A stretch of 64,000 nucleotides of DNA from Haliotis rufescens (lineage: Eukaryota): contig NW_025964112.1 in the NCBI RefSeq assembly GCF_023055435.1, positions 25,234,001 through 25,298,000 of the forward strand, written 5' to 3'. Both the position numbers and the translations under genes were made by a program. The notes under the pieces are model-generated. The model was not told the origin of the DNA, did not search any database, and was given only the letters and a program-made list of their open reading frames with translations. Numbering within the stretch: the first letter of the stretch is position 1; every line of letters starts with the position of its first letter. Of the stretch, positions 10,058 through 48,574 are shown piece after piece.

Positions 10058-12200
10058 TAATAATGCACTACACTGACATAGTAACTAACATTGTACTACA
10101 CCGACATAGCAAATAACATTGAACTACACTGACATATCAAATAACATTGAACTACACTGACATGGTAACTAACATTGCACTACACTGACATGGTAACTAA
10201 CATTACACTACACTGACATGATAACTAACATTGCACTACACTGACATAGCAACTAACATTGCACGACACTTACATAGTAACTAACATTGCACGACACTGA
10301 CATGATAACTAACATTGCACTACACTGACATAGTAACTAACATTGCACTACATTGACATAGCAAATAACATTGCACTACACTGACATAGCAAATAACATT
10401 GCACTACACTGACATGATAACTAACATTGCACTACACTGACATGGTAACTAACATTGCACTACACTGAGATGGTAACCAACATTCCACTCTTCTGACATT
10501 AAACTAACATTGCACTACTGTGACATGGTAACTAGCATTGCACTACATTGACATGGTAACTAATATTGCACTACACCGACATGGTAACTAACATTGCACT
10601 ACACTGACATGGTAACTAACATTGTACTAAATTGATATGGTAACTAACATTGCACTACACTGACATAGTAACTAACATTGCACTACATTGACATGGTAAC
10701 TAACATTGCACTACACTGACATGGTAACTAACATTGCACTGCACTGACATGATAACTAACATTGCACTACAATGACATGGTAACTAACATTGCACTACAC
10801 TGACATGGTAACTAACATTGCACTACACTGACATGATAACCAACATTCCACTCTTCTGACATTAAACTAACATTGCACTACACTGACATGGTAACTAGCA
10901 TTGCACTACATTGACATGGTAACTAATATTGCACTACACCGACATGGTAACTAACATTGCACTACACTGACATGGTAACTAACATTGCACTACACTGACA
11001 TAGTAACTAACATTGCACTACACTGACATGGTAACTAACATTGTACTAAATTGATATGGTAACTAACATTGCACTACACTGACATAGTAACTAACATTGC
11101 ACTACACTGACATGGTAACTAACATTGCACTGCACTGACATGATAACTAACATTGCACTACACTGACATGGTAACTAACATTGCACTACACTGACATGGT
11201 AACTAACATTGCACTACACTGACATGGACACCAACATTCCACTCTTCTGACATTAAAATAACATTGCACTACACTGACATGGTAACTAACATTGCACTTC
11301 ACTGACATGGTAATTAACATTGCACTACACTGACATAGTAACTAACATTGCACTACACTGACATGGTAACTAACATTGCACTGCACTGACATGATAACTA
11401 ACATTGCACTACACTGACATGGTAACTAACATTGCACTACACTGACATGGTAACTAACATTGTACTAAATTGATATGGTTACTAACATTGCACTACACTG
11501 ACATGGTAACTAACATTGCACTACACTGACATGGTAACTAACATTGCACTACACTGACATGGTAACTCACATTGCACTACACTGACATGGTAGCTACAGT
11601 TGCACTACACTGACATGGTAAGTTATTTTGCACTACACTGACATGGTAACTGACATCGCACTACATTGACATTGTAACTAACATTGCTCTACACTGACAT
11701 GGTAACTAACATTTCACTACATTGACATGATAACTAATATTGCACTACACTGACATGGTAACTCACTTTGCACTACACTGACATGGTAGCTACAATTGCA
11801 CTACACTGACATGGTAAGTTTTATTGCACTACACTGACATGGTAACTGACATCGCACTACATTGACATTGTAACTAACATTGCACTACACTGACATGGTA
11901 ACTAACATTGCAGTACATTGACATGGTAAATGACATCGTACTATATTGACATGATAAGTAACATTGCACTGTACTGACATGGTAACTAACATTGCAGTAC
12001 ATTGACATGGTAAATGACATCGTACTATATTGACATGATAAGTAACATTGCACTGTACTGACATGGTAACTAACATTGCACTACACCGACATGGTAACTG
12101 ATATTGCACTACACTGACATGGTAACTAACACTGCACTATTCTGACATGGTAACTGACATCGTACTATATTGACATGGTAACTAAGATCGCTCTACACTG
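10058..12200. repeat. 28-bp tandem satellite, consensus CACTACACTGACATGGTAACTAACATTG
   Basis: Period 28 (aacattgcac at 10981 and 11009). It starts where the 21-mer ends and stops at the Polinton terminus. Confidence 0.96.
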
Positions 12201-12321
12201 AGTGGTATAGGTAATGGGGTTTCTGGCTCACTTCCACTCGCGCCAGATTTATACGCAATGCTGCTTCTAGAGAGGGATTTTTTTAAGCAAAAATGATGAT
12301 GCGATTCAATGATCGTCACGA
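12201..12321 (+). repeat. Left terminal inverted repeat of the Polinton
   Basis: agtggtatag...gccagatttata...agagggatttttttaagcaaaaatgatgatgcgattcaatgatcgtca matches the reverse complement of 30302-30423. Confidence 0.9.
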
Positions 12322-12354
12322 TTCGTTTTAAAAGAATCATCAATATTAATTAAT

Positions 12355-13262
12355 AATGAATAAAATTAACTATAGCCCACGAGGATATTGGAAAGGTATA
12401 AGAGCAATACAAAAATTAGAGACTGCGACTAAGGTCTCTAAAGATGTGGCCAAGGATTGGCTAAAGAAACAAGCGATGTGACAAATGTACTTACCGGCAT
12501 CGCCTTATATCACGAGGAAGAAGTTTGATATTTTTACAACGAATGAAGTTCACCAGGCTGACCTCTTGCCATGGACCGCAAAACATATAAATACACTTTA
12601 ACTGTAGTGGATGTGGCTAGTCGCTACAAGGAGGCTGAACCGTTAACCTCGAACTATTCAACAGAAGTAGCTAATGCACTGAGCTGCATATATAAACGCG
12701 GACCACTAAAATGGCCCAAGTTATATCAAGTAGATCCTGGTCGTGAGTTTATGGGATACAGTAACTAAACTGTTAACAAATCACGATGTCGAAATCAGGC
12801 ATGTTGAAAAAGAGGCCCACCGTAGTCAAGCTATCGTTAAAAGATTTAACCGGACATTAGCGGAACGTTTGTTTGGATATCAGTATGGGATTCAAATAAA
12901 ATCAGATCGATTAAGATCAACCGAATGGGTGACACGATTATCAGCTGTTGTATCAGCACTGAATAATGAAGTAACGAGATTAATCAGGTAAGCAACCATC
13001 CGATGTGGTTAAAATGAAATCTGTGACTTCCGAATCTTCAGCACCGAAGAGAGGCAAAGAACAAAACCTTCCGGATAGAGTAAGCTTAAGATATTTATAC
13101 CAACCCAGTGAACTCGAAGAAGGCCAACGTCGTGCAACCAATCCGATTTGGTCTCTTAAGATATATAACATAAGTCGGTTGGTTATGACAGAAGGAGAGC
13201 CTATTCTTTATTATCTTCAAGATGGACCGGGCAGGGGAGTTGCCCATAGTCCCCAGCAATAG
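12355..13262 (+). pseudogene. Retroviral-like (rve/DDE) integrase of the Polinton, frameshifted
   Basis: PRGYWKG, NEVHQADL, YTLTVVDVASRYKEAEPL, QVDPGREFMG, V(K)RFNRTLAERL and RRATNPIWSL are spread over several ORF fragments. Confidence 0.9.
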
Positions 13263-16200
13263 AGTATTACCACCATAACCATAAGCATAGGTAGTAACAC
13301 CATCCTTATCAATCCATCTCTTTGTATCTAAGGGGAATAATGATGTCTTGTGCATTCTTAATCCATATATCCTGTGATTGTCACTTCTTAAAGTGTTCAT
13401 CTCGTGTTTGAATGTTCTGCCATTGAATAATGCTTCTTTATACTGTTCGTGTTTGATTTGTTTTTTAACCACATACTTCTTAACGCCTTTAAATTTTCTT
13501 ATCTCTCCATTATCGGACTTCTTTAAAGAATATATCTTAGGTCTTCATCCAGCATACTCCGCAATAGGGGTCCCAGCACATTCATCCTTCATCTTACCTA
13601 ACACCTTTTTATTTAATACGCTGTGCAGTGGATTATCTTTTGGGTAATCGCTCGTGTCGTACATACCTATTTTTTCTGCCATATCTTTATACACATCCTC
13701 GGTTTGTATTTCCATCAACAAAGAATCTGTGTCGGTATATAACACCTCGCATCTATCACTGAATTGGTTCTTAAGTTTGTTGTAATAAAAGTCATACATG
13801 AAGTGTTTTGACAAGTCAAGAATACTCATACCAACGTACACCAGTCTGTTGAATTTTATATTACTCTAGTGCATATGAAGTGCAGCTAGGTCGTTATCAA
13901 ATATCTTGCTTCTGTTAAAAGCCGGACTGGCTATAAGTTTCCTGAGTCTTTCGTCCATCAACATGCTTCCTTGGATTTTCCATAGTTTTTTCAAAGCTAT
14001 TCATGAGCTTATATAGGTTCTTTTCGAAATCGCTGGTAGCCATCTTTCTTAAATCTGTGTTCATCCTTATGTAGGGCTCCATCGAAGGTCTTTGATCAAA
14101 CTTTAGTATTTTCTTTAGTTTCATGACTAACGATAGATATAACTGGAGGTTACTGTAGTGAACTATATATTTTGTCTTATCCATCAAATTTGGTCCGAGT
14201 TTTTCTACATTAGCTAACCTAGTATTGCCCATCAAGGAGTGTTGATATTCCGACATCCAATCTTTATTAACCATTAATCTTTCGGGAGCTAGCGGATAAC
14301 TGTTATGGTCTTTATGCAACTCTTTTGGATATTCCAAGACAACTTCTAGTATGTACCCTTTATTCGCATCGATATTGTGGATATCATTCACATCGACCCA
14401 CTCAAAACCACCCGTGGGTAAAGGTCGAATCAGAGCCCATCCATACAAATTGTTGGCATCGAGATATAATATGTGAGTGTCGGGTTTACTCGGATCATAT
14501 CCTTCCACTAATTTATTATTAGCCTTAGAATACCTTTTTGCTGTCAACGATATACCACCTCTTAATCCTTTCTCAACAAACAAGTGCATATCATAATCAG
14601 TGAGTAGTTTTAGTCTTCTTCAACAATGCATCCCACAATAGTCCGGGAATGGAATAGTACCATGCCGGGTCCAAGCTGTATTGTTTTAAACATGTCTATA
14701 TAGGATATACACCTTTTCTCAACAACAAATGTCGTGTTAACCTTTCGGAATATTGATTTGTTATGGCAAAGTCATAGGGATTGTTCGCATTAGCTTAATT
14801 GTCCAGGGAAGATAACAGAAACTGCACGGAGTCTATGAATCTAAGCCTATTACATTGCTTTGTTCTAGCTTTCCCATCCTTTTCCGTATAATGTAAAGTT
14901 TTAGTCAACGAGAATTAGATATATTTTTCCATATTATTAGGAATACACGTTAAGCCGCCATCGGTCTTTGAGATAGCTTGCATAATGAGGTGAGAATCAT
15001 ATCCTCTAAGGTTGTGAAACACACCGTGGATGGGTATTGTTTGAGATATCATTTTTGTTTCAAGTTACACTAGTTATGCACGGCTCTCCGATAATTTCTC
15101 GTGACGTGGCAATGATCTCTTACGGAATCCCCATTCAGGGGTTTATAACATGACAAATTGTTGACTTCTTATAGGCCCTCCAATCACCCCTCGTAATACA
15201 CATGTGTTTCTTTCGCGATAAGTTTTCTCTGATAATTCTCTCTTTGTTTTGTAGGTATTCTAGGAACTTTTCCGCGGCGTCATACCAAAAGACGTTAAAA
15301 GATGGTACTTGTTGTTACCCTGTCTGGCGCTCGGCATAAAGGGGCTAAAACAAGGACTGGTGGGCTCGGAGTCAGTATACTGTGTCTGAGTTGTGTATTC
15401 ATGTTAAACTACGGCATGGTATTTCAGTGAGCTAGCACTATAAATTGGCATCAGTCCGGACTAGTACAAGCAGCCACACAAAGACATACACGTATATGCA
15501 CGTCGCTATATAAGTGCAATAATCTTGGACGCGATGTTAAACCCAATTCACCTCACCTCACCTCACCACAAGGAATATATTCTTGAGTTTTGTATGTAAA
15601 ACTACCTTCAGTATTGTGTTCCTTATTTTCTATAGGTTTGATAAGTGCTTCGAAGTCAGTGTAAATTATGTACGGTACAGGCATTTGATTACAATAATGT
15701 TCAAATTTTAGTATATTTTTTCCCTCTTTAGGCATTACAAGCTTGATAGCAGTCTGTCCAACACCTCTGCAGTCTTCTTTATGTGCTTCTAATAGATCTT
15801 GTCTGCTGTACCCATGCAGGCATCTTTCACCGAAATACTTCTTTTTCTTATGTTTTGTTTGATTGCATAATAGCCTGCTGAAACTCTTTATCCACGTATA
15901 ATGATATTTACAATCTTTTTTTATCAGAAATGTATTGATTCTGGGAATATATGCTGGGGCGGAGCTTATCCTGTGTACAACAATTCCTTTAAGAGAATGT
16001 CCGAAACGTTTATAGCTAAATTATTTTGATTTTCTGCCTTATCAATTTGTGAGATTGGTGTAGGTTCATCTATACCATCAAGGTTGAGTCCGTCGTTTTG
16101 GGGATAGCTAGAACGTCTACCCGGATTTTTGTCTGCGGGGAACATGGCAGATCTTATCATCATTCTGAAACAGTCATCACCTTTATTTTTTACATTAATT

Positions 16201-16916
16201 ATGACTTTTTTTCTTTTTATAATACGAGGGTAAATCTATATAAGATCCACCCTTTGAAAGGCATATAATTTGCATTCTCTAGATATAAACTATCGCTTCT
16301 ATCCACACCCCAACCCGAACCTCTATTAGTCCAGTGTTCTAAAGTTTCTTGTATCCGCTGAATGGAAGCATCTAATGATGTGCTTGTATCCACTGAATTG
16401 ATGTATCTAATGATGCACTTATAGACTCAGATTTGGTTATAACTTCTTGGTTGCTCCGGAAATAAGGTTCGGTATATTTGGTGTCATTTTTACTCAATGA
16501 CATTTTAACCGTCAGCTGGTATTTTATACTATTTAAATCATCTAACGTCTTGTTAATTTTGCTCTATACGATGGGTTTAACATCATTAACATCGATTTTG
16601 GAATTAATATCCATCTTCCATCCTCATAGGTATTTACCAACGTCGGCTGTGGGTACAAATCTTAACTCAACAACCATTTGATTTTTATCAACTTATTGAT
16701 TTTTATCAAGTAAATTATTCAATACAGCTTTTCTCATTCAAGAATAACTTCTCAGCCCACCTTTTTTCGCTTGAGCTTTGATTTCTCTAACAGTCTGGGG
16801 ATATTCCAAACGAATTAAGGTAATCAATTCAGCTTTTCTGATGTAGACCACGTTGTTTTGCCAAAGCCTTCAATTCTATGCAAAATGAGTCAAATGTTTA
16901 AATTGTTATTTTTCAT
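13262..16916 (-). pseudogene. Protein-primed family B DNA polymerase (pPolB), multiply disrupted
   Basis: YLDANNLYGWA, KLMN, YTDTDS, GKMKDE, IYTDFE (exonuclease), GSGWV, a degenerate Zn finger (ERCLHGYSRQDLLEAHKEDC), an endonuclease VII-like VRDHCH (~15110) and N-terminal ELKALAKQRGL. Confidence 0.93.
15279..15566 (+). mobile_element. 5'-truncated SINE (central domain resembles the Meta domain) inserted in pPolB
   Basis: cataccaaaagacgttaaaagatggtacttgttgttaccctgtctggcgctcggcataaagggg followed by a (CTCAC)n tail. It interrupts PolB between ...YIPCG and DAAEKFLEYL. Confidence 0.7.
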
Positions 16917-16920
16917 ATAT

Positions 16921-17127
16921 CTAAACACGTATTCTCCCCAACCTATTCCACTCGTTGATGTAATCTCTCTTCCTAGCGTAAATTATCTGGTTCCTGACCC
17001 TATCAGCGCTGTGTTTCTTGCATAAACAATAACAACCTTTGACCCCTATCCCACATACAGAACATGTATAATTACATTTCCTTGTCTGATGTAAAAGGCA
17101 TGAATCCCACAATATATACCAACGCAC
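16921..17127 (-). CDS. Small Cys-rich (possible Zn-binding) Polinton protein
   Basis: CSVCGIGVKGCYCLCKKH followed by a basic tail. The start is uncertain. Confidence 0.4.
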   Translation of the reverse strand: MRWYILWDSCLLHQTRKCNYTCSVCGIGVKGCYCLCKKHSADRVRNQIIYARKRDYINEWNRLGRIRV

Positions 17128-17300
17128 CTTTGTTGCATTGAATTGGCGTCCCCATGAGTGTAAATGTGCACCGATTCATGGTTAAACACCTATCATATCA
17201 TTTGTCTAAATGCAAATCACATCTCCACTTGGTGAGCAGTCAGCGCTATTTATAGAAGGCGAGTCATCGCTATTTATGTTGCCAGCTCATACGTAATAGA

Positions 17301-17678
17301 TCATAGCTTATGCATAATAATGTAGCTAAATATGGACACACAAGTCAACCCAAAAACTATTAACGCTATCTCGCGATCTTTCTGAGCCTTTGTCGGTGTA
17401 TAAAACTGACTTATTGTTGGCCTTGGCAACATTCTTAAACGTTTGAATTGAATGTCCTTGTTTACGAAGTTCATGATTAGGATATCTTTAGTAGTCATAG
17501 CTAGGCCTACATCTAGGACCATCATACCGATATCATAACCATTAAAATCTAGCTTGGGTGGTGTGGCTTCAGTAATCATTTTAGCTTAACGGGCATAGCC
17601 AATGGCAAAGCCGCTGACCACCACTGAATGATACATTGCATTTACCAACATTTTACCGTCTGTAACTGGAGTAATCAT
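17301..17678 (-). pseudogene. Two small predicted membrane proteins of the Polinton, fused or disrupted
   Basis: MITPVTDGKMLVNAMYHSVVVSGFAIGYAR*...PKLDFNGYDIGMMVLDVGLAMTTKDILI, then an ORF ending IALIVFGLTCVSIFSYII. Confidence 0.5.
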
Positions 17679-17682
17679 ACTT

Positions 17683-18069
17683 TTATAACATTACATGAGG
17701 GTTTAACTCTAATTGAACCTCATCTTGTGCAATTGCAATCAGTGTTTTCTCTTCTCTGGTCTTATAAAACAACCATACCAGCGCTATAATGCCTATGGCA
17801 TAGGGAGTTTTAATCGGGTGTGTGCTATGTTCAGTATTGTGTATTAGTTTTGCCTTTCTCAGTAGCGCACCCTTCCTACCAGCTGCAACTTTTCGAGGAT
17901 TCTTAGTTACTCTGACTTGTGGTGCAATCACTTGCGGTGATTGTGCAATCGGAGCTTGTGGTGTTTCCCCAATTGCTTTTGTTTCCTCATTCACTTGTTG
18001 TGCAATCGGAGTTTCCTCGTTCACATGTTGTGCAATCAGAGATTGTGCAATCGGTATTTCCGTCTCCAT
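17683..18069 (-). CDS. Polinton protein with PIAQ repeats, a basic KNPRKVAAGRKG motif and a C-terminal hydrophobic segment
   Basis: Open 128-aa frame with an ATG and the segment YAIGIIALVWLFY. Confidence 0.6.
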   Translation of the reverse strand: METEIPIAQSLIAQHVNEETPIAQQVNEETKAIGETPQAPIAQSPQVIAPQVRVTKNPRKVAAGRKGALLRKAKLIHNTEHSTHPIKTPYAIGIIALVWLFYKTREEKTLIAIAQDEVQLELNPHVML

Positions 18070-18071
18070 TA

Positions 18072-18495
18072 TTAGTAAGTTAGCCTAGCCATTATTAAAG
18101 TGGTGATAAGTGGGGCTCCGTATCTATGATAAAACTCACAGCTTACTGCGCTTATAGCGTGTTTGATGAATGGGTCTTTCTCGAGAGATTTGAATGAATA
18201 CGGTCGATTTTTTGCTCGGATAGGAAGAAAAGTACTAGCTATAGCTGTGTATAGTTGTAACATAGCCGAACCTATTGTTTTAGTCATGGTTGCTTCCAGT
18301 CTAGACTTGTAACACGCATATAGTTTTTTAATTTCCTCGCCGGTCATGTTATCATTTTTTTTCAGTGGTATAATATTGCCCCAAATATTAGGAACATTTT
18401 CCACCTGCTACCAAAGCCGCGAGTCTTTCTCTATGTTGATCTCTATGTTGATCAACTACAGGTTCTTGGAGCAGTTGTTCGATAAATTACATATC
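18072..18495 (-). pseudogene. Polinton hypothetical protein
   Basis: RERLAALVAGG...YLGQYYT then EEIKKLY...LEKDPF, with a frameshift or stop near 18380. Confidence 0.5.
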
Positions 18496-18589
18496 CAATA
18501 CAGCCTGAAATAATAAATTGTTGCTAAAGAATGAGGATTTCAAACCACATTATTACATAATAACCGCTAATGTTCAATTCATCACATTT

Positions 18590-18750
18590 TGCTAGATTTT
18601 TGCTATTTTTGCTAATTTGGCTATATTTTTGCTATAATTTTGTTATTTTTGCTTTAATTTTGCTTAATTTTACTATATGTTTGCTATAATTTTGCTATAA
18701 ATTTTGCTATTTTTACTGTAATTTTGCTATTCTTTGCTATTTTTGCTGAG
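18590..18750. repeat. AT-rich degenerate ~11-bp repeat (TTTGCTATAAT) inside the Polinton
   Basis: Repeated tttgcta(t)aattt units between the ATPase and the small-ORF cluster. Confidence 0.75.
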
Positions 18751-19333
18751 CAATTGAATAAGTAGCTGGTTGATCAGTTTTTAATACCAGTTTACAGTGC
18801 TTCGTTTCTGTTAACACTTTTCTGATTTTATCTCACTCGAGCTTGGTAGAAATAACATCATTTTTGCGTAGACATTCCTCTAAAGAATCTCAGTCTTTGC
18901 AACGAAGCAGGGCTACCCATTTGGTCTGCTCTCTGAGGTCTTTCAGAACAGATTTTTTTTGAGTAAGTACCCAAACACTTTGCTCCATATGACGTCCGGA
19001 GAATGCTAATATAAAAGCATATCTTTCTTTTTGGTAAGTTGATTCTCCTTTGTATTTTTGGTGACATACTGGTAAACAGTCTTCTAAACGATCGCTCGGA
19101 TCAACTTTGTACACCCCGGGATCATTCATTAGCCAATCTCTCGAAAGGTATGTTTTATTAAAGTTTATAGTCGGGCACAGAATAATAGTATGGGCGAAAA
19201 CATCCCGATAATGACCTTGTAAAATATCTAGAATAAAAGCTGTTTTTCCGCAACCCATTTGCCCACAGATAATAGGGCAGTGCGGTTCTTTAGGTAAAAG
19301 ATTATTAATAGATCGCTTGCACGAATCTTCCAT
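18745..19333 (-). pseudogene. A32/FtsK-like genome-packaging ATPase
   Basis: Walker A GQMGCGKT, IILCPT, and SGRH..QSVWVLTQK...DLREQ. The Walker B region appears deleted and the gene is frameshifted. Confidence 0.85.
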
Positions 19334-20445
19334 TCTGTATATTAAGTTGCGCGTCCATAATCACGTACAAATATATGTTAAATTTACCAGCCTGTTTGGC
19401 GAGCTTCGTTATCTGTATAGTAACACCCTCACTGGCATTTTCTATTCTCCGCCCACTACCGTGTAGTTGGTCATCGTCCGTGGTTCGCATGTCGAGCCAT
19501 AGCGCATACTTTGTGGTAAGGAATTAAGCCATCGTTACACCCCCGAGAGACAGATCTTTCACGACTGCATTAACTTCTGGGCTTCGTTTTATAGAAGGGA
19601 GTTTTTTAATCTCATCCCACTGTTGATATGCTCGCATACCTTGACTATATAGTTGATAAGGCACTCCCTCAATAGTCAATTCTACTTTTGTAATCTTGGA
19701 GTAGTAGAATGCCTCGGTATCTCTTGCAAATGCTTCAGAAGGGTCATCGAACAACATTAAAATACCCTTCAAAGATCTAGCAGGGTCATTTAGATTGATA
19801 TTCCACGTCAAATCTCTTTCGTTTCTGGTGATCTTTCGGTGTCAAAGCACGCGATCGTACAAAATGGCTAAACTTCTGGTATACTGGTTACGAATTTCAT
19901 ATCATACTCCAGTGAGATATTGTCAATAGAATGTGACTATCTAGTAATTCAAAGTCGAGCGGAATATAGAATCGGTTAGCAAATGCATCAGCAACAGCCT
20001 TATCTTCTACGATGGTATTATCGCCAGTAGAAGCACCCACACACAGTCTCAATGTGTTCTGATTACAAATACCTTGGTACTGTAAGTTTTCCCGTTCTTT
20101 AGCCATTCTCCAGAGATCCATGTAACAGAAGTATATATCGCTGTCGTCAATACTCAAAACCTCATTACCGCTAATTTTAATCACGATTTTCTTAACAATC
20201 ACACGACCTATGTTCTGCACGAGCTCCCTGGCCATGTCGGTTGAAGTCAAACTAATAGTAAATGATAGTTGGGCAGTTCCTGGAACTAACATATCGTGAG
20301 AGCCTAGATTAGGAAAGCGAACGTAGAAGTGTTTGATTCTGATCAATGGTACTTGGGTTATTAGTTATAGTTACAAACTGGCAAATTGCTTTGACCCCTA
20401 ATGGATCCCGAAGTCTACGTTGTGGGTTTAACTTTATTATTTTAT
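19305..20445 (-). pseudogene. Putative double jelly-roll major capsid protein
   Basis: Fragments KLNPQRRLRDPLGVK..ITNNPSTIDQNQ, VRFPNLGSHDMLVPGT, WNINLNDPARSLKGILMLF, KITKVELTIEGVP and YALWLDMRTTDDDQLHGSGRRIEN. Total size (~380 aa), beta-rich character and position next to the ATPase fit an MCP. Confidence 0.75.
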
Positions 20446-20447
20446 TA

Positions 20448-20723
20448 ACTTTGACTCTCGCGTTAACCGGTGGTGGTGGTACAGGAGGTGGCACACCATC
20501 TAGTGATAAGGGTGGTGTAAAAGAGTGTATAAAAAAGCATTTAAAAGCATTAGGAGAAGCACTGGGAAATCTCTCTGGGAAAGGCGCATCTGCACTTCCC
20601 GGTATAATAGGGAGTATAGTTTCCTGGCTCTTGAATTTATAAGGAAAGACCGCCACTTGGCTTAGTCAAAACTTGTGGGCACTGATCATAGCAATTGCCG
20701 GGCTGTTGTACGTATCCGCTTAA
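20448..20723 (+). pseudogene. C-terminal remnant of an amphipathic/transmembrane Polinton protein
   Basis: LTLALTGGGGTGGG...LKALGEALGNLSGKGASALPGIIGSIVSWLLNL*GKTATWLSQNLWALIIAIAGLLYV. The 5' part appears to be missing. Confidence 0.6.
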
Positions 20724-20724
20724 G

Positions 20725-21900
20725 ACTATTTATCCAAATCATGAGTAAACCAACCGCGACTCCACATACTGTAAGCGCTGTTTTTTCATCGATTTGTTGT
20801 TGATTTTTAGCGGCAATATATGGTGACACTTGTGGTTGTGCGTCAGTAGATGGTTGTGAAACATGTGGTGTCTGTACCTTTACTGTTCCCATTTCACCTG
20901 TGTTTGTTTGCGTTATTAATTTGGTGTTAATATCTGAATTTATACCTGGTTTTTGTTGATAGGTAGCAATAACAATTTTATTATTATAACCTATCACTTG
21001 GCCGATCTTAAGTTCCATATTACTCGGAGACATGTATAGTCCTGCCCAATAAAAATAGTCTACTTTGGATTGAGTGTACTGTAATACATCTTGATAACGT
21101 TATATAGAAGATGGTATGTCAACTGGTAAATTAATAGCATCCTCTACGTTTGCGACAAACTGTTTTGCACATTGAGCACGGTCCCAAAACCAATCATTCC
21201 CGTTCGTGTTTGTGATTGTGCACGAAGAATTGCCCATACATAAGTTCTTATTGATTAATTAACTCTTACAACTCCTGGGGTAGTAAAATTATTTTCTGTT
21301 TTATCACACAGAAATTCTTTCCAAGCGTTTGCGGTATCGTTTAGTTGCACAAATTATGTAACAATATAAGCTAAACCACACTTAAAACTCATAACATCTC
21401 CTCTCCAATTGTTACTCGAAAGTTCCCAGCCATGATTAAGATTATGCATTCTTACAAAAAGATTAGTTTTTCTGTAACAACTTAAATGGATTGAATGGTT
21501 GATGAGTTTTTTTAACTAAATCTTCACTTTCTTCTTTATCAGTTCTTTGTCCACTGTACGGAACACCTAGACCATGGTTAAGTCCTTTAATACGCCAATT
21601 TTTTACTCGTAGAAATATTAAATTCCTGACAAAAACGTTCATACACGATCCTATTGTACGGATTATTTGTGGAATTCCATGCTTGATCCTGCAGTAATGG
21701 AGCACTTATTTATTTAAGTATACGTCTAAATCTCATAGTACACGTGAAATGATAAAACAGACTTATTTAGTTCAAATCCTGGGGCATAAAGAGATACACC
21801 ACATCCTGTTGTGGCACACCATATGGCAAAGTTTAACTGGTTTTGCAAAAATTGCATTGGATTTTGGAACCATTCATGCACCATTTTATCGCTAGTTCCT
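20725..21900 (-). pseudogene. Polinton hypothetical protein with a C-terminal hydrophobic anchor
   Basis: QNQLNFAIWCATTGCGVS (~21800), RFHVYYEI, QFVANVEDAIN..VDIP..RYQDVLQY..SKVDY, SPSNMELKIGQVIGYNNKIVIA, and C-terminal TALTVCGVAVGLLMIW. Confidence 0.6.
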
Positions 21901-22029
21901 GTGACCCTGTATTTTTCAAAGATATCGAGAAAAATTTAATAAAAAACTAAGCACCAGAGGCACTTACTTAAATCGACTTATTCGTAATGTAAATTGATTT
22001 CATATTTAAGTTATGATATAGTATCTTTG

Positions 22030-22605
22030 TATATTTAATCTGTTTGGTACACTCCCAGGAATAACAAACGGTCAGTCTATTCAACTGCTTCATACTATCG
22101 ATAACTCAGCTGGGCAACTTGAAGTTGCTCTATGCAATGTAACGTATTACCCGCGGTGGACCAATATAAGTGCTGTGAGAGAAAATAATAAGTTATTGAT
22201 AGATAGAGACGTGTACACTATATCTGATGGGTATTACAGCGTATGCTGTCTCAATGATGAAATATTTAAGCCTTTTGGACATAGTCTCAAACAAACTGAG
22301 CCGAATGGGATGCTGATTTTAAACAATGGAGAAAGGGGTGTAACTCTTCTCCCGTACTTCGCAGATACACTTGGATTGTTTGGACAAAAAACAATAATAG
22401 GACCCAATGGAACATCGCATGGAGTTAAATTACCCGATTTAGTCAAAGATGAAAAAAACAATAGTGGTAGAACGGAATCTTTCTCATCATTACAATATAA
22501 AAGTTAAAGCGGGGCCTTTATTTCAGATCTCAAAATGTCTGCATTAGATGTAAAACATCAAACTGTGCATATAGGATACTTGAGTGTAACACTCCATATT
22601 ATAAA
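22030..22605 (+). pseudogene. Putative minor capsid protein (penton-like)
   Basis: IDNSAGQLEVALCNVTYYPRWTNIS..NN..TISDGYYS matches the pattern of Polinton minor capsid proteins. It is frameshifted and internally deleted. Confidence 0.55.
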
Positions 22606-23189
22606 TAATGGTTGATTCATCGGGGCCTGGAACGCATAACCTTAGACAATGTAATAAATTGCGCTATCCAATCTTGGAGACACAGAAGGATTTGGTAAAC
22701 CCGGTACCGATGGCAAGTTATACGCTTTACACTTACAAGATAATGTATACAAGCGAAAAGAAGTTGTATTCACAGGAAATCTAGATTTAAGTGATGTTGA
22801 TGTTAGTAGACTCAATAAAAACACTTCATACAATCTTACTCACAATGATGATAATAAATGGACTATGGTCGAAGAAAAAATCGAGTGGCTACTGAATATC
22901 GTCATTGCCCCACCATATGTGATGACGGGTAAGGTACATCAGTTAACTAAGATAATGAATAGTGGGATCGTACTCAAGACTTATATCCCCACAAAACGAA
23001 AAAGTGTGTTAGTCGCTCCCCTACCAGAAAACCGAGGTTATATAAACATGCACAAAAGTTCAGCGCCACCCACCATATTTGTGAGCTGTTACTTTTGGCA
23101 CTTAATGATGATTATTATTTATTACGTGATGTACGATTGTTATTAGCCGTATATGTAAACCTCATGTGATGCAAAAGTCGACCCAAAGC

Positions 23190-24631
23190 AAGTTTATCTT
23201 GTGTTCCAAAAGAATATGAGCAGAAAGGAATTTTACCGAAGACCAGAAATTGAAGGATTAGAAAACATTGAAAAATTTTTTTTGTCATGTAACTGTCATG
23301 ATATCAGCAGACCATATCAGGTGTTACATAGACACTGATATTGCAAGACAGAAACGTCAGTAACGTGTGTATGATCCACGGACATTGACCACAGCTTCAA
23401 CCCTACGCCTCATACTCATTACAAGTCGTTGAATGCTTCTCTGAGGCAAACGGATCCTTCTTCATGAAGTGCGGCTTCAAGTCCAGCGAGATTTTGAACT
23501 GGGGGATCACGATGTCTGATTTTCCGCCCAAGAATGTCCCAGAGATGCTCAATCGGATTAAGATCCAGACTACAGACCGGCCAAGGAAGAGTGGCAATAG
23601 CTTCCTGACGCGAATAAGCCAAAACTGCATTGTCGTCCATGAAAACAGGTCTTGTCTGAAGAGTATGGTTGTCAAAGTGAGGGACTACCACTGGACGAAG
23701 AATGGCATCTTGGTATCATTGGCCATTCAGGTTTCCACGAATTGTCACCATCGGAAGTTTGCAGCCGAAGGAAACACAACCCCATATCATGACAGACCCC
23801 CCGCCACATGCTAAGGTCTTCTTGATGTTCCTTGGTGCAAAACGAGTGTAACGTTGCCTCCAAACACGTATTTGACCATCAACAGTTCGTAGCAGCATTC
23901 GACACTCGTCAGACCAATGGATCCTTCTCCAGTTGGCCAAGTTCCATCGACTACGGGCACGACACCATATCAGACGATTCCGCATGTGCCTCTCAGTCAG
24001 TTGAGGACGTTTTACTGGTCTTCTGGCGTTATAAAAAGCCGCTCTGAGGCGACGCCTTACGGCCATCGTCAAGAATCTCTGATGGGTAATCCACTGCAGT
24101 CTTAAATCTGTTGAAGTGGCAAATAGATTTCGTCTGACTATCCTGAAAAGATGTCTATGCTCTCTGTTAGAGGTCTTTCTTGGCCTACCAGACCTATGCC
24201 TGTCATTGACATCATTGGTTTGACCATGTTTGACAATCAAACGAGTGATAACACTGTGATGACGACCCATTTGTCTTGCAATGGCCCTGCATGACATGCC
24301 AGCATTTTTCATGCCTATCACTTGCCATCTTTCAACGTTCGTTAACTTTCTCCTCACCATGGCTGATTTTCAACCTCTCTTGGAAGGGGAATCTCACACA
24401 GGAGCAAAATGCAACTACTTGTCTGAAACTTGAATTTCACTATTTACAGGGTAGGGGAACTGCAGCAACACGTAAAGCACGCTTTCCTTGTGGTATCTGG
24501 ACAAATTTGGGTTCATGGATAAATATGGATGCCTAATTCAGTCATACATCATCATATTTCGTATTTCTGATTCCAACACGTGAAATCAAGAGACTATGAA
24601 TATGATGGCGCTTAACTTTTGTGCATGTGTA
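23190..24631 (-). mobile_element. Tc1/mariner DNA transposon nested in the Polinton; transposase 23400-24360 is frameshifted
   Basis: HTH with SGRPRKT, WSDE, GGGSVMIWG, MDDNA and DLNPIEHLWD. A TA-bounded Tc1-like end (ttaacttttgtgcatgtgta) lies at 24612-24631. The left end is not defined. Confidence 0.88.
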
Positions 24632-25022
24632 TATGTTATTGAGTCATCCAGCATTAAAAATGTTAGTTTAAATTTGGTTACTGAATTCAATGATTTAAAA
24701 CAGAACTTGAGTGCTATAGCTGATCTTTCTACACTTATTATTGAAGTCTTGTTTTGGGGATGCATCGGAAGATGCCTTCGAGATATTACCAGGTCTATCA
24801 ATTAAATGGCTCAAGAAACACGAGTGTCGACGTTGCAGTATTATTTATATGGGAGTATCACCCATTGCAACCCTTGAGGGGGTCCAAGTTAATAAAAGTG
24901 AAAGCATTTCTCTTACTAAGATATTTATGCTGCATAATGTACATTTAATAAGGTTGATGTATACTCCCAAAACGTTTAAGCAAGATCAATTAAAGACTAT
25001 TATATGATATAATAATATACAT

Positions 25023-25528
25023 TATGAGTTTATATCTGGTGCTCGATGAAGCATGTGAAAAGATGGAAACTGTTGATGAATTTCGATTACATCAAATAAG
25101 CGACATAAAACATCGAATAGGGAAGGAGAGGGAGTTTAGACTTGAATTGTAACAAAAGTGTCGCAGAGCTGTGAATGTTCTCGATGGAGTTGACACTGCA
25201 CTTGTAACAGCTGGCATGGGACTCGGTGTAGCCGGTGTTGTTAATTATCAACTATAATTGCTGCGCCCAGCATAATTGGTAGCAGCTAGAGGCTCAGGAC
25301 TGGCAGGAATAGCGATAAAATTTATTTCTCGTAAGTTGCAAAAGAAAGCATTAAAACATGACAATATTCGGATTGAGGATCATATTTCAACAGCACTGGC
25401 TGAGTTTTGTCAGAAATAACCAAATACAACGCATTGAAGTAGGAGATTCGATCAAATTCTCATAAGACTAGTGGTATTAGTGAAGATGAGAAAAAAAGTT
25501 CACAGAACAGGGGAGACAACAAGCACTG
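25023..25528 (+). pseudogene. Polinton two-helix membrane/coiled-coil protein whose 3' end is displaced by the DIRS element
   Basis: MSLYLVLDE...FRLHQISDIK...RRAVNVLDGVDTALVTAGMGLGVAGV..STIIAAP..GLAGIAIKFISRKLQKKALKHDNIR, with stops and frameshifts. Confidence 0.6.
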
Positions 25529-25931
25529 CCTGACCCCATTAGCAAAACCTTTGTGCGACTACCGCCGCGGACCAAACTGTCAGCTACCGCTTGACAAGAC
25601 GACTTCCGCCGCCTGGCCCATATACGTGGCAATTGTTTGCCCCAACGTATGTTATTTTACAATTCCCCGGCTGAAAAGTTGGGAAAGACAAGGTTCCCAC
25701 TGAGAAGCAGATAACCCCGGAAAGGTTCCCGCTGAAAAGCAGGTAGCCTTAAGCACGAGTATTAATTTGGAAGCAAGTTAATTCGTTTCTACCAGTGTAG
25801 CCCACAAGAACCCCGCCACAAAGCACCAGAGTGCTACCCCACACCCATGGCCACCCGATACGCGGAGATAGCATTGTTGCCCCGCTTGCCTATGTACTGA
25901 AAAGAAACACTAACCTGTGGAGATAACATCC

Positions 25932-26479
25932 TTACTGGCACAAAACAAGTGCCAGGGCATGCAATAAATTGTCCGTAAACACACACAATCCTTTGTCACT
26001 GAGGTGGACGCCCTCCCAGGCGTACCATGTCTTGTCTGATGCCAGGATCTGGGGATGTGGCACCATTGTACCGCCGAGCTCTTTGACTCGGTTGGCCAGT
26101 CGGCGGTTGATATTCTTCCGCATCCCCTCGATCTTTAGTGGATCCCTGGCATCGTGCCAGTAGCGCCTCGGCAGAATTGAGGATATGATGATCTTGGTGT
26201 CAGGAAGCTGGAGTTGTATCTGAAGGATTGATGCCACCATGTCAAGGTAGAGTTGGCTGCCCTTGACCGAGCACAGGTCGTTGGAGCCCAGGTGAATGAT
26301 GAGGGCTCTGGGGGTGCGCCATGTCGCCTTGACCTGTGCATCCAGAATGGTGTCCAGCTCCTTCCACCTCATCCCCCCTCATGCCAGCCATAGCATCCTC
26401 GGTTGGTTCGGACTGGTGCCCTTCAGGAGCAAGTACTGCCATGCCCTGGCTATGTAGCTGGATCCCACCATCCAAACTG
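25932..26479 (-). pseudogene. SGNH/GDSL hydrolase carried by the retroelement
   Basis: Block I VWMVGSSY, block II GMRW, block III IIHLGSNDL and block V EGVHLS, with one in-frame TGA at 26379-26381. Confidence 0.85.
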
Positions 26480-26523
26480 TAAACAATAAGAAGTGTAGTA
26501 AGTACCATGAAAGACTATTTGAA

Positions 26524-27440
26524 TTAATTGTGTAACATTGAATTTGTTGGTAAGCGTATGTAAGCATTGTAGCAATCTGATTTCCACCTGCCGTATTGTT
26601 GTATGAGGTGTTCGGGCACCCTGTTCATGGCTGCTGATGTGGCTGCCCCAATGTGGAAGGAGTGCGAAGAATAGCAAGCCGTGTTTATGTTGCTGTGTGC
26701 TAAGGCCTTTTTTAGGAGTGCCTGGAATTGGTACCTTGTAACGCGGGAATGGTCGAAATGAACGAATGCATGTTGTGGGCCGGAGGGGCGCGTTTCCAGG
26801 TAGTGCTTGATGGCGACTACCGGACATAGTGGATTACCTGGTATCGATGACATTGTAACTGTTGTCCCCATCCTGTACTGATCAGACTTTGAGTGTGGTA
26901 AATGGATTGAAAGCTGCTGGGGGCTGCCCGAGAAGCTTAAATTCTGGATGGCGCAACCTGTTTTTGAGGGTCCAGTTTGGACCAGTTCGCTAACCCTAAA
27001 GAAACCGAAAAAGGCTGTGCAGTAGACTGCCTTGGACAGTCTGACTTCATATGCTGATGAGCATACGTGAGGCAGATTGTTGGTTACTACCTGCAGCAGA
27101 TCTGCAGTGATCGGTTTTCTGGTGTCTGGTCGGCCCGCTGATTTGTGTAAGCCTGTTAAAATCTTGCCTACCATGAAATGGTTTGTACAGTCGGTGAGCC
27201 CGTGGAATTTGTGGTGTGAAGACAGCGCTGCAATGTAAGTCTTGACTGTGTTAGGGGAGTGGTGAGTGACTGAGCGATAAGCAATGAAGTTTACTGGACT
27301 GGCCACACCTCTTGTAGCTGGTGTGTGGACCGGAACTGGTGCAAGGCATTGATGCCTGTTTGGTAGGTGGCCCATGTATTTGTAGACAGAGATTGTTGTA
27401 GGAGTCTGCCGGCTTCCTGCCTCAGATCAGCCATATGTTG
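26524..27440 (-). pseudogene. Tyrosine recombinase
   Basis: FFGFFRVSEL, SKSDQ, SHSFHIGAAT (the canonical HSFR Arg is replaced by His) and GRWKSDCYNAY. Confidence 0.92.
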
Positions 27441-29050
27441 CATGGGATAGGTGTGGGGTTCTGGTCTGCGGCTGGTGCTTCCTCTCGGAAGCGTTTGAGC
27501 TGAAACCTCGAGAGAGCATCGGCAATAGTGTTAGCAGTGGAACATACATACTTTGCCTGAAACATAATATTATACCGGAGGCACTGCAGGATTAGGCGAC
27601 GGAGTAGGCTCATCACTCTGGGGGCATTGGTCGACTGTTTGTTGATTATTGCTACGACGGCTTGGTTGTCGCAGTAAAAGAGCACCTTTTGTTTGCGAGT
27701 TGCTTGCCCCAAAGTTGGATGGCCAGTGTGATGGGGAACAGCTCCAGGAGCGTTAAGTCCCGTGTAGTTTCATCCGTCACCCACTGGGTTGGCCATGCGC
27801 CGTTAAACCATTTGCCCTGCATGAAGGCCCCAAAGCCGGCACCACCCGCTGCGTCTGAAAACAGCTGGAGGAAATCGCTGTCTACCCATAGTTGGTCCTG
27901 AAACACTGAAATGCCATTATAACTCGTAAGAAATGTTAACCACATTTGTAGGTCTTCCTTGACCCAGCTGGTAATCCTAATGTGGTGAAATGGTTGCTTA
28001 CCTTTGCTAAGCAGATCGATTAGCCTTCGGCTGAATGCCCTTGCCATTGGTATAGCCCTGCACATAAAGTTAAGCTTGCCTATGAGGGACTGAAGGGCCC
28101 TTTTTGTTACCTTGATGTTACCTGTTGACAGGATGTCTTGGATTTCCCTTGTCGCCTCCTTGATCTTGGACTCTGGGATTCTGATCTGCATTGCATTGGT
28201 GTCGATTTCCAGCCCTAAGAATGTCAGTTTGGTCGTGGGGCCCACCGTCTTGTCGTGCGCAATAGGGACCCCAAGCTGTTCTAGTGTATTCACGCATCCG
28301 TTGATGTTGTCCGAGCAGTGGCTGGTGCCTGCTGTGCCCCCCGTTAGGAAGTCATCCAGGTAATGCATGATCTGACACGTTGGAAGATGTGATTGCATGC
28401 ACCATTGCAAGAAGGTACTAAACGTTTCAAATATGGCGCAAGATATGGAGCAGCCAAATGGTAAGTATTTATCAATAGAACTCACCTTCAAATCTGATGC
28501 CTAGTAGCTCGAAATCGGATGGGTGGACTGGTATGATTCTAAAGGCCGACTGAATGTCAAATTTTGCTAGTAGTGCTCCCTTTCCCAGTTGTTGAACCAT
28601 ATGCGTAGCTCCAACGGAGCAGGCCTCTGTGTCTATGAAGTCATTTATAGATTTACCCCTGGGATAGGATAGATGGTGAATTAGACGGAATTCCTCCGCA
28701 TGCTTACCCAGATGCTGACCATAGCCTGGCTGCTTCTTGGGCACCAGGCCTATTGGGGATACTTGGAGGTTGTCCAGGGGGGTGTCCTTGAAGGGGCCCG
28801 CCATCCTGCCAAGGTCGACTTCCTTTTGTAGTTTTTGTTTCACGTAGCCTACCGTGTCTTGGTGCGTGGCTGATCGCAAGTTTCGTGCCAGGCGACCAAT
28901 GCGGCTTCCCTGGGACTTGAGCTTAAAGCCAAAGCTAAAACCTGCCCATAAATAATTTGCATCTCTGTAATTGACCCTAGCATATTGGCGTAACCAGGGT
29001 GCCATTTCATTGAGATCCACGGGGGAAGGGGCCATTGAATTTACCTGCCT
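27422..29050 (-). pseudogene. Reverse transcriptase and RNase H of the DIRS/Ngaro element
   Basis: SPIGLVPKK, FRLIHHLSYP, KFDIQSAFR, LPFGCSIS and YLDD for RT. FSDAAG, LLELFPI, CDNQAVV and NTIADALSR for RNase H. Two frameshifts. Confidence 0.93.
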
Positions 29051-30147
29051 TGACGGCTGGTTTTCTGTTAGGGAAAGGCTGATTGGGCTTGTATGGGGTC
29101 GGTTGGACCCCATTCCCTCGAAAGCAGATCCTAGAGCTGTGGGAATGTTTGCCACACTTACCGCATTTGTTAGTGTACTTGCAGTTGACCCTGCTACAGC
29201 CAAGTTTATTGAAATCCCAGCATACCTGACTGGCGATGTCCCCCTGTACGCGTGGCATTGCGGGCATTCTGGTTGTCGTGCCGGCTGTGTGACCATGTAC
29301 TTCAGCCACAACTCCCCGTCGATGTTGTCCCAGCGTCGTGAGCGGTCCCTTGACATTCTGTGTCCGAATTGTTGGTCGTAGGTTGACCAGGCATCCCCCC
29401 CCGAATCGGAGTGCCGCCGTTCTTATGGTTTCCATGTAGGACAGCAACCCCTGGGTTGTGCGGACCTCAGAGTGCCTACTAACATAGATATACATGAAAA
29501 TGTGGAAAGCTGAAGTCCAGCTTGCCAGGGACAGGCGCTTTGGTTGCTGCTTTATTGGTTTAAAAATTATCTTACCTGAGGAGTCGTACGCCATGATAAT
29601 CGTACCGTCCTCGTGACTTCCCTCGGTGTTTGGTAGGATTGTGCCGAGGTCAACAAACTCGCCACGCCAGATTTTTTCCCTCATCTGTTGTTTGACGTGG
29701 GCGTCTATTCCATCCGCATGGAAGGATAGGGAATCCCCGTATCCTGCATTCTGATTGGCTGGCCAAGTCGCGTCACCGTCGGCCTCGTTGTGAGCATCGG
29801 GGATTCTCCCTATGTTTTGCGAAATGGCGGGAGAACTAAGTCCAAGCCTTACCTGTTGGTTTGCGCTAACCGGGCTGGGTGCTGAATGTTCCAGCAAACT
29901 GGAGTATTTTTTCAGGTTGCTCTTTTACCTGGGTAGCCGAGTTGGCAGCCTGCGTGGCATTTACAAGCTGCGCCGATTGTACGTTAATTCTGTTGCCACC
30001 TTCGATATTTCCGTAATTGGAAGACTCAGCATCAGCTGTTGCCTCCTGCATAATGTGTACTCCAGGGGTTTATCTTCTGGTTGTCCTGGCCTGCTTGGCT
30101 CCCCTCCCCAGCTTATGGCTGACGCCTGCTCTTCTCTTGGGAGGCAT
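29007..30147 (-). pseudogene. Gag-like ORF1 of the DIRS/Ngaro element
   Basis: Starts MPPKRRAG (ATG at 30147). Contains KIWRGEFVDLGTIL, WTSAFHIFM and a Cys/His finger CWDFNKLGCSRVNCKYTNKCGKCGKHSHSSRIC, with a few disruptions. Confidence 0.85.
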
Positions 30148-30301
30148 CACGAAAGGTCGAGGTGGTGAGTTGGTATTCCACAAGTGTAAAAATGTCCCGA
30201 GGATGAAGTTCGGGAGTAGAACGGAATAAATTTAGTAGTTAGTACTAAATGTAAGTATGAGAAATAATAGAGAATATTTTCATTACAAATTTAGTATAGT
30301 C

Positions 30302-30423
30302 TCATGACGATCGTTGAATCACATCATCATTTTGACATAAAAAAATCCCTCTGTAGTGGTGGTATAAGTATATAAATCTGGCTCTAGTGGGGTTGTGATA
30401 AAACTGTCATTGTCTATACTACT
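30302..30423 (-). repeat. Right terminal inverted repeat of the Polinton
   Basis: Reverse complement reads agtagtatag...gccagatttata...agagggatttttttatgtcaaaatgatgatgtgattcaacgatcgtca. Confidence 0.9.
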
Positions 30424-47882: not shown

Positions 47883-48574
47883 ATATATTTCCAAATGCAC
47901 CGAAATTCTATGCCTTTTGATTGTTTAATATATTCAGCAAACATTCGACTTATCGCCTCTTATCATAAGCCCCTCCGGGCAGGACCCTTAATCTCCAGCC
48001 CTATCTGTAAATGTCAATAAATACCTCCTCACGTCGCCGGATCTTACGTATGTACATTCACGTGGTTCTATGACCTTGCCCCACGTCATGTAATACCTTT
48101 ATCTACAAAACCTGACTGACCTGGTGTCAGTAAAACGCGGCAGAGATCGACTCGTGTAAGTGACAGAGCGAGTCTCCCCACCCGGGAACATTGGCCACTC
48201 GGTCCCGGTGTGCGTTCTGTCAGGTTATTATATGTACCTTTTCGATCTGTTCCATAAACATGGCTGCTGTCGTCGAAAACTTCACCCCCGAGTTTTGTCT
48301 TCCCCGTCTCCACCCTGGGCTACCATCCGAGGGCCGAAAACTACGCCCTTGGACATGAACTTGTGGTACCTTGTGCTGTACTCACATTCCAGTGATATTG
48401 GTCTGTGTCCCACTGCCTGATCTGTATATCCAATTAAAACAGTCTTGTCGCGGCTTTATCGCAAAACGTCCAATGATTCAAAAAAACATATTATCTGTTT
48501 GTGAGTTATGGAATGTTGTCCTTCTGTGGTATCGGTGTCCTTTTTAAAACACGTGTATGACAGTTCTGTGACTC

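What the first reader, a model, noticed from the sequence alone, without database searches (positions are those of the whole stretch)
12201..30423. End-to-end endogenous Polinton/adintovirus-like genome with a capsid module and both termini
Seen: matching TIRs with AGT(A/G)GT ends enclose integrase(+), pPolB(-), a small-ORF cluster(-), ATPase(-), MCP-like(-), membrane protein(+), unknown(-), mCP-like(+), unknown(+) and membrane protein(+). Removing the nested inserts leaves roughly 12 kb. Established: this gene set defines Polintons, and capsid plus ATPase implies a virion-forming ancestor. Inference: this is a reconstructable genome of a possibly undescribed invertebrate lineage whose pPolB carries a Zn finger and an endonuclease VII-like insert.
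Basis: partly seen in the sequence, partly recalled or inferred. Interest (0 to 1): 0.8.

Follow-up and report, generated by a model that had tools for sequence, protein, structure and literature searches.

The report
Decayed protease-less Polinton with unusual capsid
This is a broken-down copy of a virus-like element that has multiplied hundreds of times in an animal genome; it joins the copying and integrating genes of animal Polintons to a coat protein of a rarer type first noticed in a sea anemone.

Summary
The element is real: inverted ends at 12201-12321 and 30302-30423 enclose 14 genes in the order reported. It is a dead, partly deleted copy (about 11.6 kb of element DNA; sisters are 13.6-16 kb) carrying three nested inserts. 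It is not an adintovirus or ordinary Maverick. Its capsid protein folds as a double jelly-roll but shows no similarity to the canonical Maverick capsid in the same genome, and no maturation protease was found. By eye the capsid belongs with Polinton-3_NV of Nematostella, a published chimera of Polinton replicase/integrase and a Polinton-like-virus capsid. The endonuclease VII insert is already in print. What adds interest is the family: 1,350 exact terminus matches in this genome, 1,261 capsid candidates against 186 for canonical Mavericks, 5-bp target duplications (9 of 9), purifying selection on capsid and ATPase, the same gene order in marine metagenomes, mollusc relatives, and a conserved 430-450 aa protein whose confident model matched no known fold. 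Virions and expression are not shown.

The parts
12201..12321 (+). Left terminal inverted repeat, abutting a 28-bp satellite array
   Evidence: 82% to a sister copy's end
12350..13235 (+). RVE integrase pseudogene (family protein 318 aa)
   Evidence: PF00665 E 4e-8 on a sister frame
13218..16842 (-). Protein-primed DNA polymerase B pseudogene; family protein about 1,265 aa with Rho_N repeats, candidate vOTU Cys/His, CxxC-H-C zinc-finger-like motif, endonuclease VII-like insert
15282..15566 (.). Short dispersed repeat (SINE-like, label recalled) inserted in the polymerase gene
   Evidence: gap against a sister copy; 91% match at an unrelated locus
16930..17182 (-). Small Cys-rich ORF (family 96 aa), broken
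17307..17684 (-). Remnants of two small ORFs (family 153 aa with two hydrophobic segments; 87 aa, weak holin-family hit on a sister frame), partly deleted
17686..18550 (-). Two small ORFs (family 117 aa basic with one hydrophobic segment; about 200-230 aa), the second broken
18749..19360 (-). A32-like packaging ATPase pseudogene
   Evidence: PF04665 E 0.004 in window, E 4e-10 in sister
19308..20434 (-). [quoted passage not shown]
   Evidence: sister frame folded and searched
20382..20741 (+). Remnant of coiled-coil protein with three C-terminal hydrophobic segments (family about 430 aa); most of the gene deleted
20725..22126 (-). Conserved unknown protein (family 430-450 aa, C-terminal hydrophobic helix), broken; no fold match
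22022..22612 (+). Penton-like minor capsid pseudogene
   Evidence: hhalign to canonical Maverick penton E 4e-5, probability 70%, 200 columns
22658..25004 (+). Unknown gene (family about 270 aa) split by the Tc1 insert; sits where relatives carry fibre-like genes
23040..24634 (-). Nested Tc1/mariner transposon, 29-bp inverted ends
25003..25514 (+). Membrane protein pseudogene (family 218 aa, one hydrophobic segment)
25524..30231 (-). Nested tyrosine-recombinase retrotransposon (gag, RT/RNase H, YR, SGNH hydrolase; Ngaro-like order, label recalled), 93-96% identical to its kin
30302..30423 (-). Right terminal inverted repeat

Best explanation
The locus is an old, inactive copy of a high-copy endogenous virus family that joins a Polinton replication/integration module to a Polinton-like-virus (PLV)-type capsid module of the Polinton-3_NV kind, without a maturation protease. 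Shown: gene set, double jelly-roll fold, terminal repeats, 5-bp target duplications in sisters, copy number, purifying selection. Inferred working cycle of the family: the RVE integrase inserts the linear genome by its AGT...ACT ends with a 5-bp staggered cut; the pPolB primes replication from the ends with its own terminal-protein domain, released by the vOTU domain (model of PMC11071308); the A32 ATPase fills a double jelly-roll capsid that probably has an inner membrane (six ORFs with hydrophobic segments), with pentons at the vertices and an exchangeable receptor-binding gene beside the penton. New germline copies probably arose through a packaged stage, because capsid and ATPase stayed under selection while copies multiplied. 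The window copy inserted earlier than the sampled sisters, then decayed and was hit by a short repeat, a Tc1 and a YR retrotransposon.
For: Sister MCP model pLDDT 73, pTM 0.71; best matches PBCV-1, EhV-201 and faustovirus capsids, Z 19.9/18.8/18.3, about 300 residues, rmsd 3.5-3.9; Foldseek E 2e-12. No match to canonical Maverick MCP of the same genome (hhalign probability 0.3%). Database protein P0309 is identical to the printed P3_NV MCP at 36 of the first 50 residues (my count by eye) and aligns full length with the family MCP, 30% identity, E 6e-72. P3_NV and N1_NV lack the protease and are called PLV-capsid chimeras. Protease profile hits only the canonical Maverick loci; best elsewhere E 0.83; no peptidase family among the 14 family genes or 31 frames of relatives and controls, positive control E 2e-9. 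5-bp duplication 9 of 9, 6-bp 0 of 9. dN/dS against one reference copy, 9 copies each: INT 0.14, ATPase 0.17, MCP 0.26, pPolB 0.30. Same gene block in 16 metagenome loci of 5 kb or more. Window 81-83% to sisters, sisters 91-96% to each other.
Against: The link to P3_NV rests on a by-eye comparison and a proxy; no named PLV or Repbase sequence was in my tree (quick tree). The 10 sisters were picked for open capsid frames, and star-shaped dN/dS shares the reference branch and can reflect selection in source elements before insertion. Penton, the 430-450 aa protein and the 270 aa protein have higher ratios (0.59, 0.54, 0.79). A very divergent protease could hide in a gene I did not fold. The MCP model has 69 residues under pLDDT 50. 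The penton call is moderate (probability 70%) and was not folded.
Confidence: 0.8

Rival explanations
1. Same identity, but the family now spreads only inside the genome as a self-synthesizing transposon; capsid genes are relics and no virions form.
For: No relative found in IMG/VR; copies pile up in one region of a chromosome-scale contig; several structural-side genes have dN/dS 0.5-0.8.
Against: MCP 0.26 and ATPase 0.17 are as constrained as pPolB 0.30 among copies 91-96% identical; more than 40 of 150 scored MCP matches lie in 425-residue open frames (count by eye); MCPs 68-75% identical occur in distant marine hosts and metagenomes.
Confidence: 0.3
2. It is an ordinary Maverick/adintovirus (Mavpol1 or Mavpol2) with a fast-evolving capsid that lost its protease.
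For: RVE integrase plus pPolB with candidate vOTU and AG...CT ends define Polintons; the penton is alignable to a canonical Maverick penton; only one canonical capsid type was compared.
Against: No capsid similarity; published trees put P3_NV-type capsids outside the mavpol lineage; ATPase shares only about 50 residues at 32% with the canonical one.
Confidence: 0.08
3. The family is a helper-dependent, virophage-like parasite of a large DNA virus of its host and may serve as inherited defence.
For: PLV-type capsid; related PLVs are helper-dependent; two metagenome relatives carry VLTF3-like genes.
Against: The host family has no VLTF3, primase-helicase or other sign of cytoplasmic factory use; no helper was looked for.
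Confidence: 0.15
4. Chance juxtaposition of unrelated fragments or an assembly artefact.
For: Terminal repeats only 75% identical; target duplication imperfect; flanked by satellites.
Against: Colinear end to end with sister copies at about 82%.
Confidence: 0.01

Closest known systems
Polinton-3_NV and Polinton-N1/N1A_NV of Nematostella vectensis (PMC4028283, PMC4642659, PMC11296320)
   Same: Capsid type (by eye and by proxy); ATPase present and protease absent; Polinton-type polymerase and integrase; similar size (14.4-16.6 kb).
   Different: Only about 30% capsid identity to the proxy; the host family sits in a separate subclade with mollusc-linked proteins (SH 99); a penton was not found in P3_NV but is present here; accessory genes and duplication length of P3_NV could not be compared.
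Canonical Mavericks/adintoviruses (Polintoviricetes, Mavpol1/2; PMC8502044)
   Same: pPolB with candidate vOTU, RVE integrase, A32 ATPase, penton, terminal inverted repeats; endonuclease VII insert known from insect Mavericks.
   Different: No adenain; unrelated capsid sequence; shorter integrase (318 against 422 aa); 5-bp duplication against the usual 6 bp (recalled, not from a call).
Polinton-like viruses / Aquintoviricetes (PgVV, TsV, group X; PMC4642659, bioRxiv 10.64898/2026.06.19.733378)
   Same: Minimal morphogenetic module without protease; swappable replicase (one relative has an SF1 helicase in place of pPolB). The 2026 preprint notes octocoral, hydrozoan and bivalve ATPases nearest to Aquintoviruses.
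   Different: Animal germline host, RVE integrase, high copy number; no named PLV capsid was aligned here.

Membership tests
Polinton/Maverick (operational definition) | pPolB and RVE integrase between terminal inverted repeats | tested here: met
Polinton/Maverick (operational definition) | Target-site duplication (6 bp typical, 5-6 reported; recalled) | tested here: inconclusive
   family 5 bp in 9 of 9; window 3 of 5 bases; searches gave no passage on Polinton duplication length
Polinton/Maverick (operational definition) | Double jelly-roll MCP and A32 ATPase | tested here: met
Polinton/Maverick (operational definition) | Single jelly-roll penton | tested here: inconclusive
   profile match E 4e-5, probability 70%; no PDB sequence match; not folded
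Adintoviruses / Polintoviricetes Mavpol1-2 | Adenain/Ulp1 maturation protease | tested here: not met
   absent from window, 10 sister copies and two relatives with both ends
Adintoviruses / Polintoviricetes Mavpol1-2 | Hexon recognisable by sequence from adintovirus hexons | tested here: inconclusive
   no match to the one canonical type at hand; the second mavpol type was not available
Adintoviruses / Polintoviricetes Mavpol1-2 | pPolB with N-terminal OTU-like domain; Alpha or Beta class | tested here: inconclusive
   candidate Cys and His 89-90 residues apart in 7 of 7 polymerases, motif only; class not tested by tree
Polinton-3_NV-type chimeras | MCP homologous to P3_NV MCP | tested here: met
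   by eye and proxy only
Polinton-3_NV-type chimeras | Protease absent with pPolB and RVE present | tested here: met
Aquintoviricetes (PLVs) | MCP/ATPase cluster with TsV, PgVV or group X profiles | not testable with these tools
   reference HMMs are in closed preprint supplements; IMG/VR scans found nothing
Described Repbase/Dfam family | Near identity to a deposited consensus | not testable with these tools
   no Repbase or Dfam on hand

The most novel reading that the evidence does not exclude
The family is a member of a large, unnamed, family-level group of marine-invertebrate viruses outside Polintoviricetes: Polinton replicase and integrase, PLV-type capsid, no maturation protease, a fixed block of membrane genes and a core protein of new fold. 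It was infectious recently enough to seed hundreds of germline copies with selected capsids, outnumbering canonical Mavericks about seven to one, which would make this host a place to find the first virions of an integrating animal Polinton-type virus.
Probability: 0.35. Interest if true: 0.75.

Novelty: new member of a known kind. Interest (0 to 1): 0.47.

Why it matters
The locus itself is a fossil. Its family matters because PLV-type capsids in animals were known from two or three sea-anemone elements and were called the only metazoan exception (PMC10120064), with passing notes on bivalves since. Here such a capsid type is the dominant Polinton-like element of a 1.33-Gb animal genome, with a gene block conserved across marine samples and capsid genes under selection. 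That bears on the open question whether animal Polintons make virions, and on how capsids mature without a protease. The conserved protein without a fold match is a structural target.

Tried and rejected
IMG/VR scans with MCP alignment, the 430-450 aa protein alignment and the ATPase found no relative; a broader MCP alignment was too divergent for the pattern scan. PDB sequence searches with MCP, penton and 270 aa profiles found nothing. The 430-450 aa protein model (pLDDT 82, pTM 0.77) had no Foldseek match in BFVD (best E 0.2) and no chain at Z 5 or more among 48,161 (rows filled by its last helix; the core alone was not searched), so a new fold is not shown; it did not resemble a protease in those lists. 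Expression: no RNA holder listed; three runs guessed as RNA cover all 30 bins including terminal and intergenic DNA, as DNA would, and a small-RNA run laid 13 of 21.6 million reads: no evidence either way. ESM Atlas neighbours were viral or unnamed with recognition below threshold: leads only. PF03175 absence cannot assign polymerase class, since a 60% identical relative does hit it. No split or inverted repeats found in the YR insert. Three look-ups of earlier scan findings were empty. An NCLDV origin of the capsid, suggested by weak Capsid_N hits (14 of 52 members) and top structural matches at 10-16% identity, was not adopted: it reflects what the libraries hold. No complex prediction was sent.
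Full report
Observation. The two ends are real: 12201-12321 and 30302-30423 align as inverted repeats at 98 of 131 bases, E 9e-19. The left end abuts a 28-bp satellite. All viral genes in the window are in pieces; Pfam gives only weak hits for polymerase, A32 ATPase and capsid, and strong hits for two passengers, a Tc1 transposase and a tyrosine-recombinase retrotransposon.

The family. A search of the own genome G000 (1.33 Gb; the window is C334:25234001-25298000) with one capsid fragment gave 1,261 candidates; all 150 scored matched at 75-86% apart from the window itself, more than 40 in 425-residue open frames (count by eye). The terminal 16-mer occurs exactly 691 + 659 times, against 1 for the reversed control. 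Among the first 100 listed matches on contig C1, 21 inward-facing pairs are 13-16.5 kb apart, and 89 lie between 38.1 and 46.3 Mb against 11 in the first 38 Mb. So there are probably about 650 elements, a few hundred of full length (extrapolation). Canonical, protease-bearing Mavericks also live in this genome but their capsid gives 186 candidates. I fetched 10 sister copies, chosen for open capsid frames. They share one 14-gene map, are 13.6-16.0 kb long, have terminal repeats 89-100% identical and a 5-bp target duplication in 9 of 9 where both ends were held, 6 bp in 0 of 9. They are 91-96% identical to each other and 81-83% to the window copy.

State of the window copy. It is colinear with sisters. 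It carries about 58 stops and 19 frame changes in aligned parts, and has lost most of the first membrane gene, part of two small genes, parts of polymerase and capsid, and the inner right-end region. Inserts: Tc1 at 23040-24634; YR retrotransposon at 25524-30231, 93-96% identical to its kin and so younger than the host element; a 285-bp dispersed repeat at 15282-15566. About 11.6 kb of element DNA remains. Its flanks match at 3 of 5 bases. It is a fossil, not a complete genome.

Capsid. An unaltered sister frame (P0001) has 2,526 relatives among 7,094 candidates, the best 120 at 65-75% identity; named ones are from Elysia marginata and from bins of lucinid-clam symbionts, which I read as host DNA. 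A profile finds 2,846 clusters at 50% identity, 400 at E 1e-30. The model (pLDDT 73) is a double jelly-roll: PBCV-1 Z 19.9, rmsd 3.6, 303 residues, Foldseek E 2e-12. It has no similarity to the canonical Maverick capsid (probability 0.3%). The supplement of PMC4028283 prints the capsid of Polinton-3_NV; database protein P0309 equals it at 36 of the first 50 residues by my count and aligns over the whole length with P0001 at 30%, E 6e-72. In a quick tree of 69 capsids without named references, the host family lies in a tight subclade (SH 99) with the mollusc-linked proteins, far from P0309.

What print says. P3_NV and N1_NV have ATPase but no protease. Yutin et al. placed two anemone Polinton capsids in PLV group X and called them possible chimeras; Bellas et al. 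2023 found cnidarian capsids the only metazoan ones outside the Maverick cluster; Barth et al. 2024 show P3_NV and N1A_NV as a small separate clade. A 2026 preprint notes octocoral, hydrozoan and bivalve ATPases nearest Aquintoviruses, and another assigns 40.8% of bivalve viral regions to PLVs. Nine library searches showed no description of this subclade, its gene block or its duplication length; the library lacks most subscription journals and Repbase, and the preprints' supplements (capsid HMMs, genome lists) were closed, so it may be held there unnamed.

Protease. A profile of two host adenain frames hit only canonical Maverick loci; best score elsewhere E 0.83 over the window and all 87 loci then held. 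Pfam found no peptidase in the 14 family genes or in leftover frames of relatives, while the control scored E 2e-9. Two metagenome relatives carry inverted repeats at both contig ends and so appear complete.

Other genes. The penton-like gene aligns with canonical pentons over 200 columns, E 4e-5, probability 70%; 4 of 10 sisters show two or more penton-like frames. The polymerase keeps all catalytic motifs, a candidate vOTU Cys/His pair in 7 of 7, a CxxC-H-C motif in 9 of 10 and an endonuclease VII-like motif in 8 of 10 examined. Such nuclease inserts are known. Six family proteins have hydrophobic segments. The 430-450 aa protein has 773 relatives including one from Mactra antiquata, no Pfam family, a confident model and no fold match. 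The 270 aa gene has 35 relatives; other members carry at that slot genes with T7 tail-fibre or C1q hits, which suggests an exchangeable attachment protein (inference). Of 35 metagenome loci, the 16 of 5 kb or more keep the block MCP-ATPase and, in 15, the small genes behind it; one has an SF1 helicase in place of pPolB and two have VLTF3-like genes.

Selection. Against one reference copy, dN/dS over 9 sisters is 0.14 integrase, 0.17 ATPase, 0.26 capsid, 0.30 polymerase, 0.48-0.59 for the membrane, unknown and penton genes, 0.79 for the 270 aa gene. The sample is biased to open frames and comparisons share a branch, so this supports but does not prove a packaged stage. Expression was not shown. 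Near-identical capsid DNA is in 18 runs of 5 studies under 3 organism labels.

Verdict. Works like a Polinton (shown gene set; cycle inferred from established models), is not a member of the adintoviruses as defined by their protease, and files best as a new, much amplified member of the Polinton-3_NV-type chimeras, probably in a mollusc (inference from named relatives). Interest 0.47.

Papers seen: PMC4028283 passages and supplements 1 and 4; PMC4642659 passages, section 7, supplement search; PMC10120064 passages, section 9; PMC11296320, PMC10748475, PMC5803895, PMC11071296, PMC11502894, PMC2836005 and 10.1101/2025.04.19.649669 passages; PMC8502044 passages and two of three parts of Results; PMC11131425 abstract, sections 6 and 8; PMC11071308 passages, section 6; 10.64898/2026.06.19.733378 passages and all Results; 10.64898/2026.10.13.758929 abstract, passages, section 12 and part of section 10. 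The 6-bp norm for Polinton duplications and the labels SINE-like and Ngaro-like are recalled.

Noticed in passing
G000:C1, 38.1-46.3 Mb: Family termini are strongly clustered: 89 of the first 100 listed on C1 fall in 8 Mb, 11 in the preceding 38 Mb; the window also lies in satellite-rich DNA with another copy within about 15 kb upstream of it. Suggests targeting of, or retention in, heterochromatin.
   Followed up: partly
window 1-10056, 10056-12201, 48561-50806, 56260-64000: Large satellite arrays with 21, 28, 44 and 38-bp units; the 21-bp array gives spurious His-rich open frames.
   Followed up: no
window 25524-30231: YR retrotransposon with an SGNH hydrolase gene after the recombinase, 50% GC, high-copy and young (93-96% to kin); no terminal or split repeats found.
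   Followed up: partly
L029/L030, L021/L022, L033/L034 ends: Sister copies carry two or three tandem terminal-repeat-like units of about 170-180 bp at one end; the window copy keeps only the outer one.
   Followed up: partly
L025, L034, L038, L039: Penton-like gene duplicated in tandem in some sister copies, paralogues about 72% identical, and fast-evolving (dN/dS 0.59).
   Followed up: partly
L050:9970-13629: A relative with 73% identical capsid and RVE integrase has an SF1 helicase gene instead of pPolB: replicase swap within the lineage.
   Followed up: partly
L076, L078, L056: More distant relatives carry VLTF3-like genes or a second A32-like ATPase, and one has the membrane-penton block moved.
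   Followed up: no
L044-L049: Canonical protease-bearing Mavericks of several capsid subtypes coexist in this genome.
   Followed up: partly
L085-L087 and P0013, P0026, P0420, P0435: Genes of this lineage sit in prokaryote genome bins (Thiodiazotropha, Saprospiraceae, Iainarchaeum), probably as contaminating animal or viral contigs.
   Followed up: no
window 31756-32274: Fragment of a LINE-type reverse transcriptase just beyond the right end.
   Followed up: no
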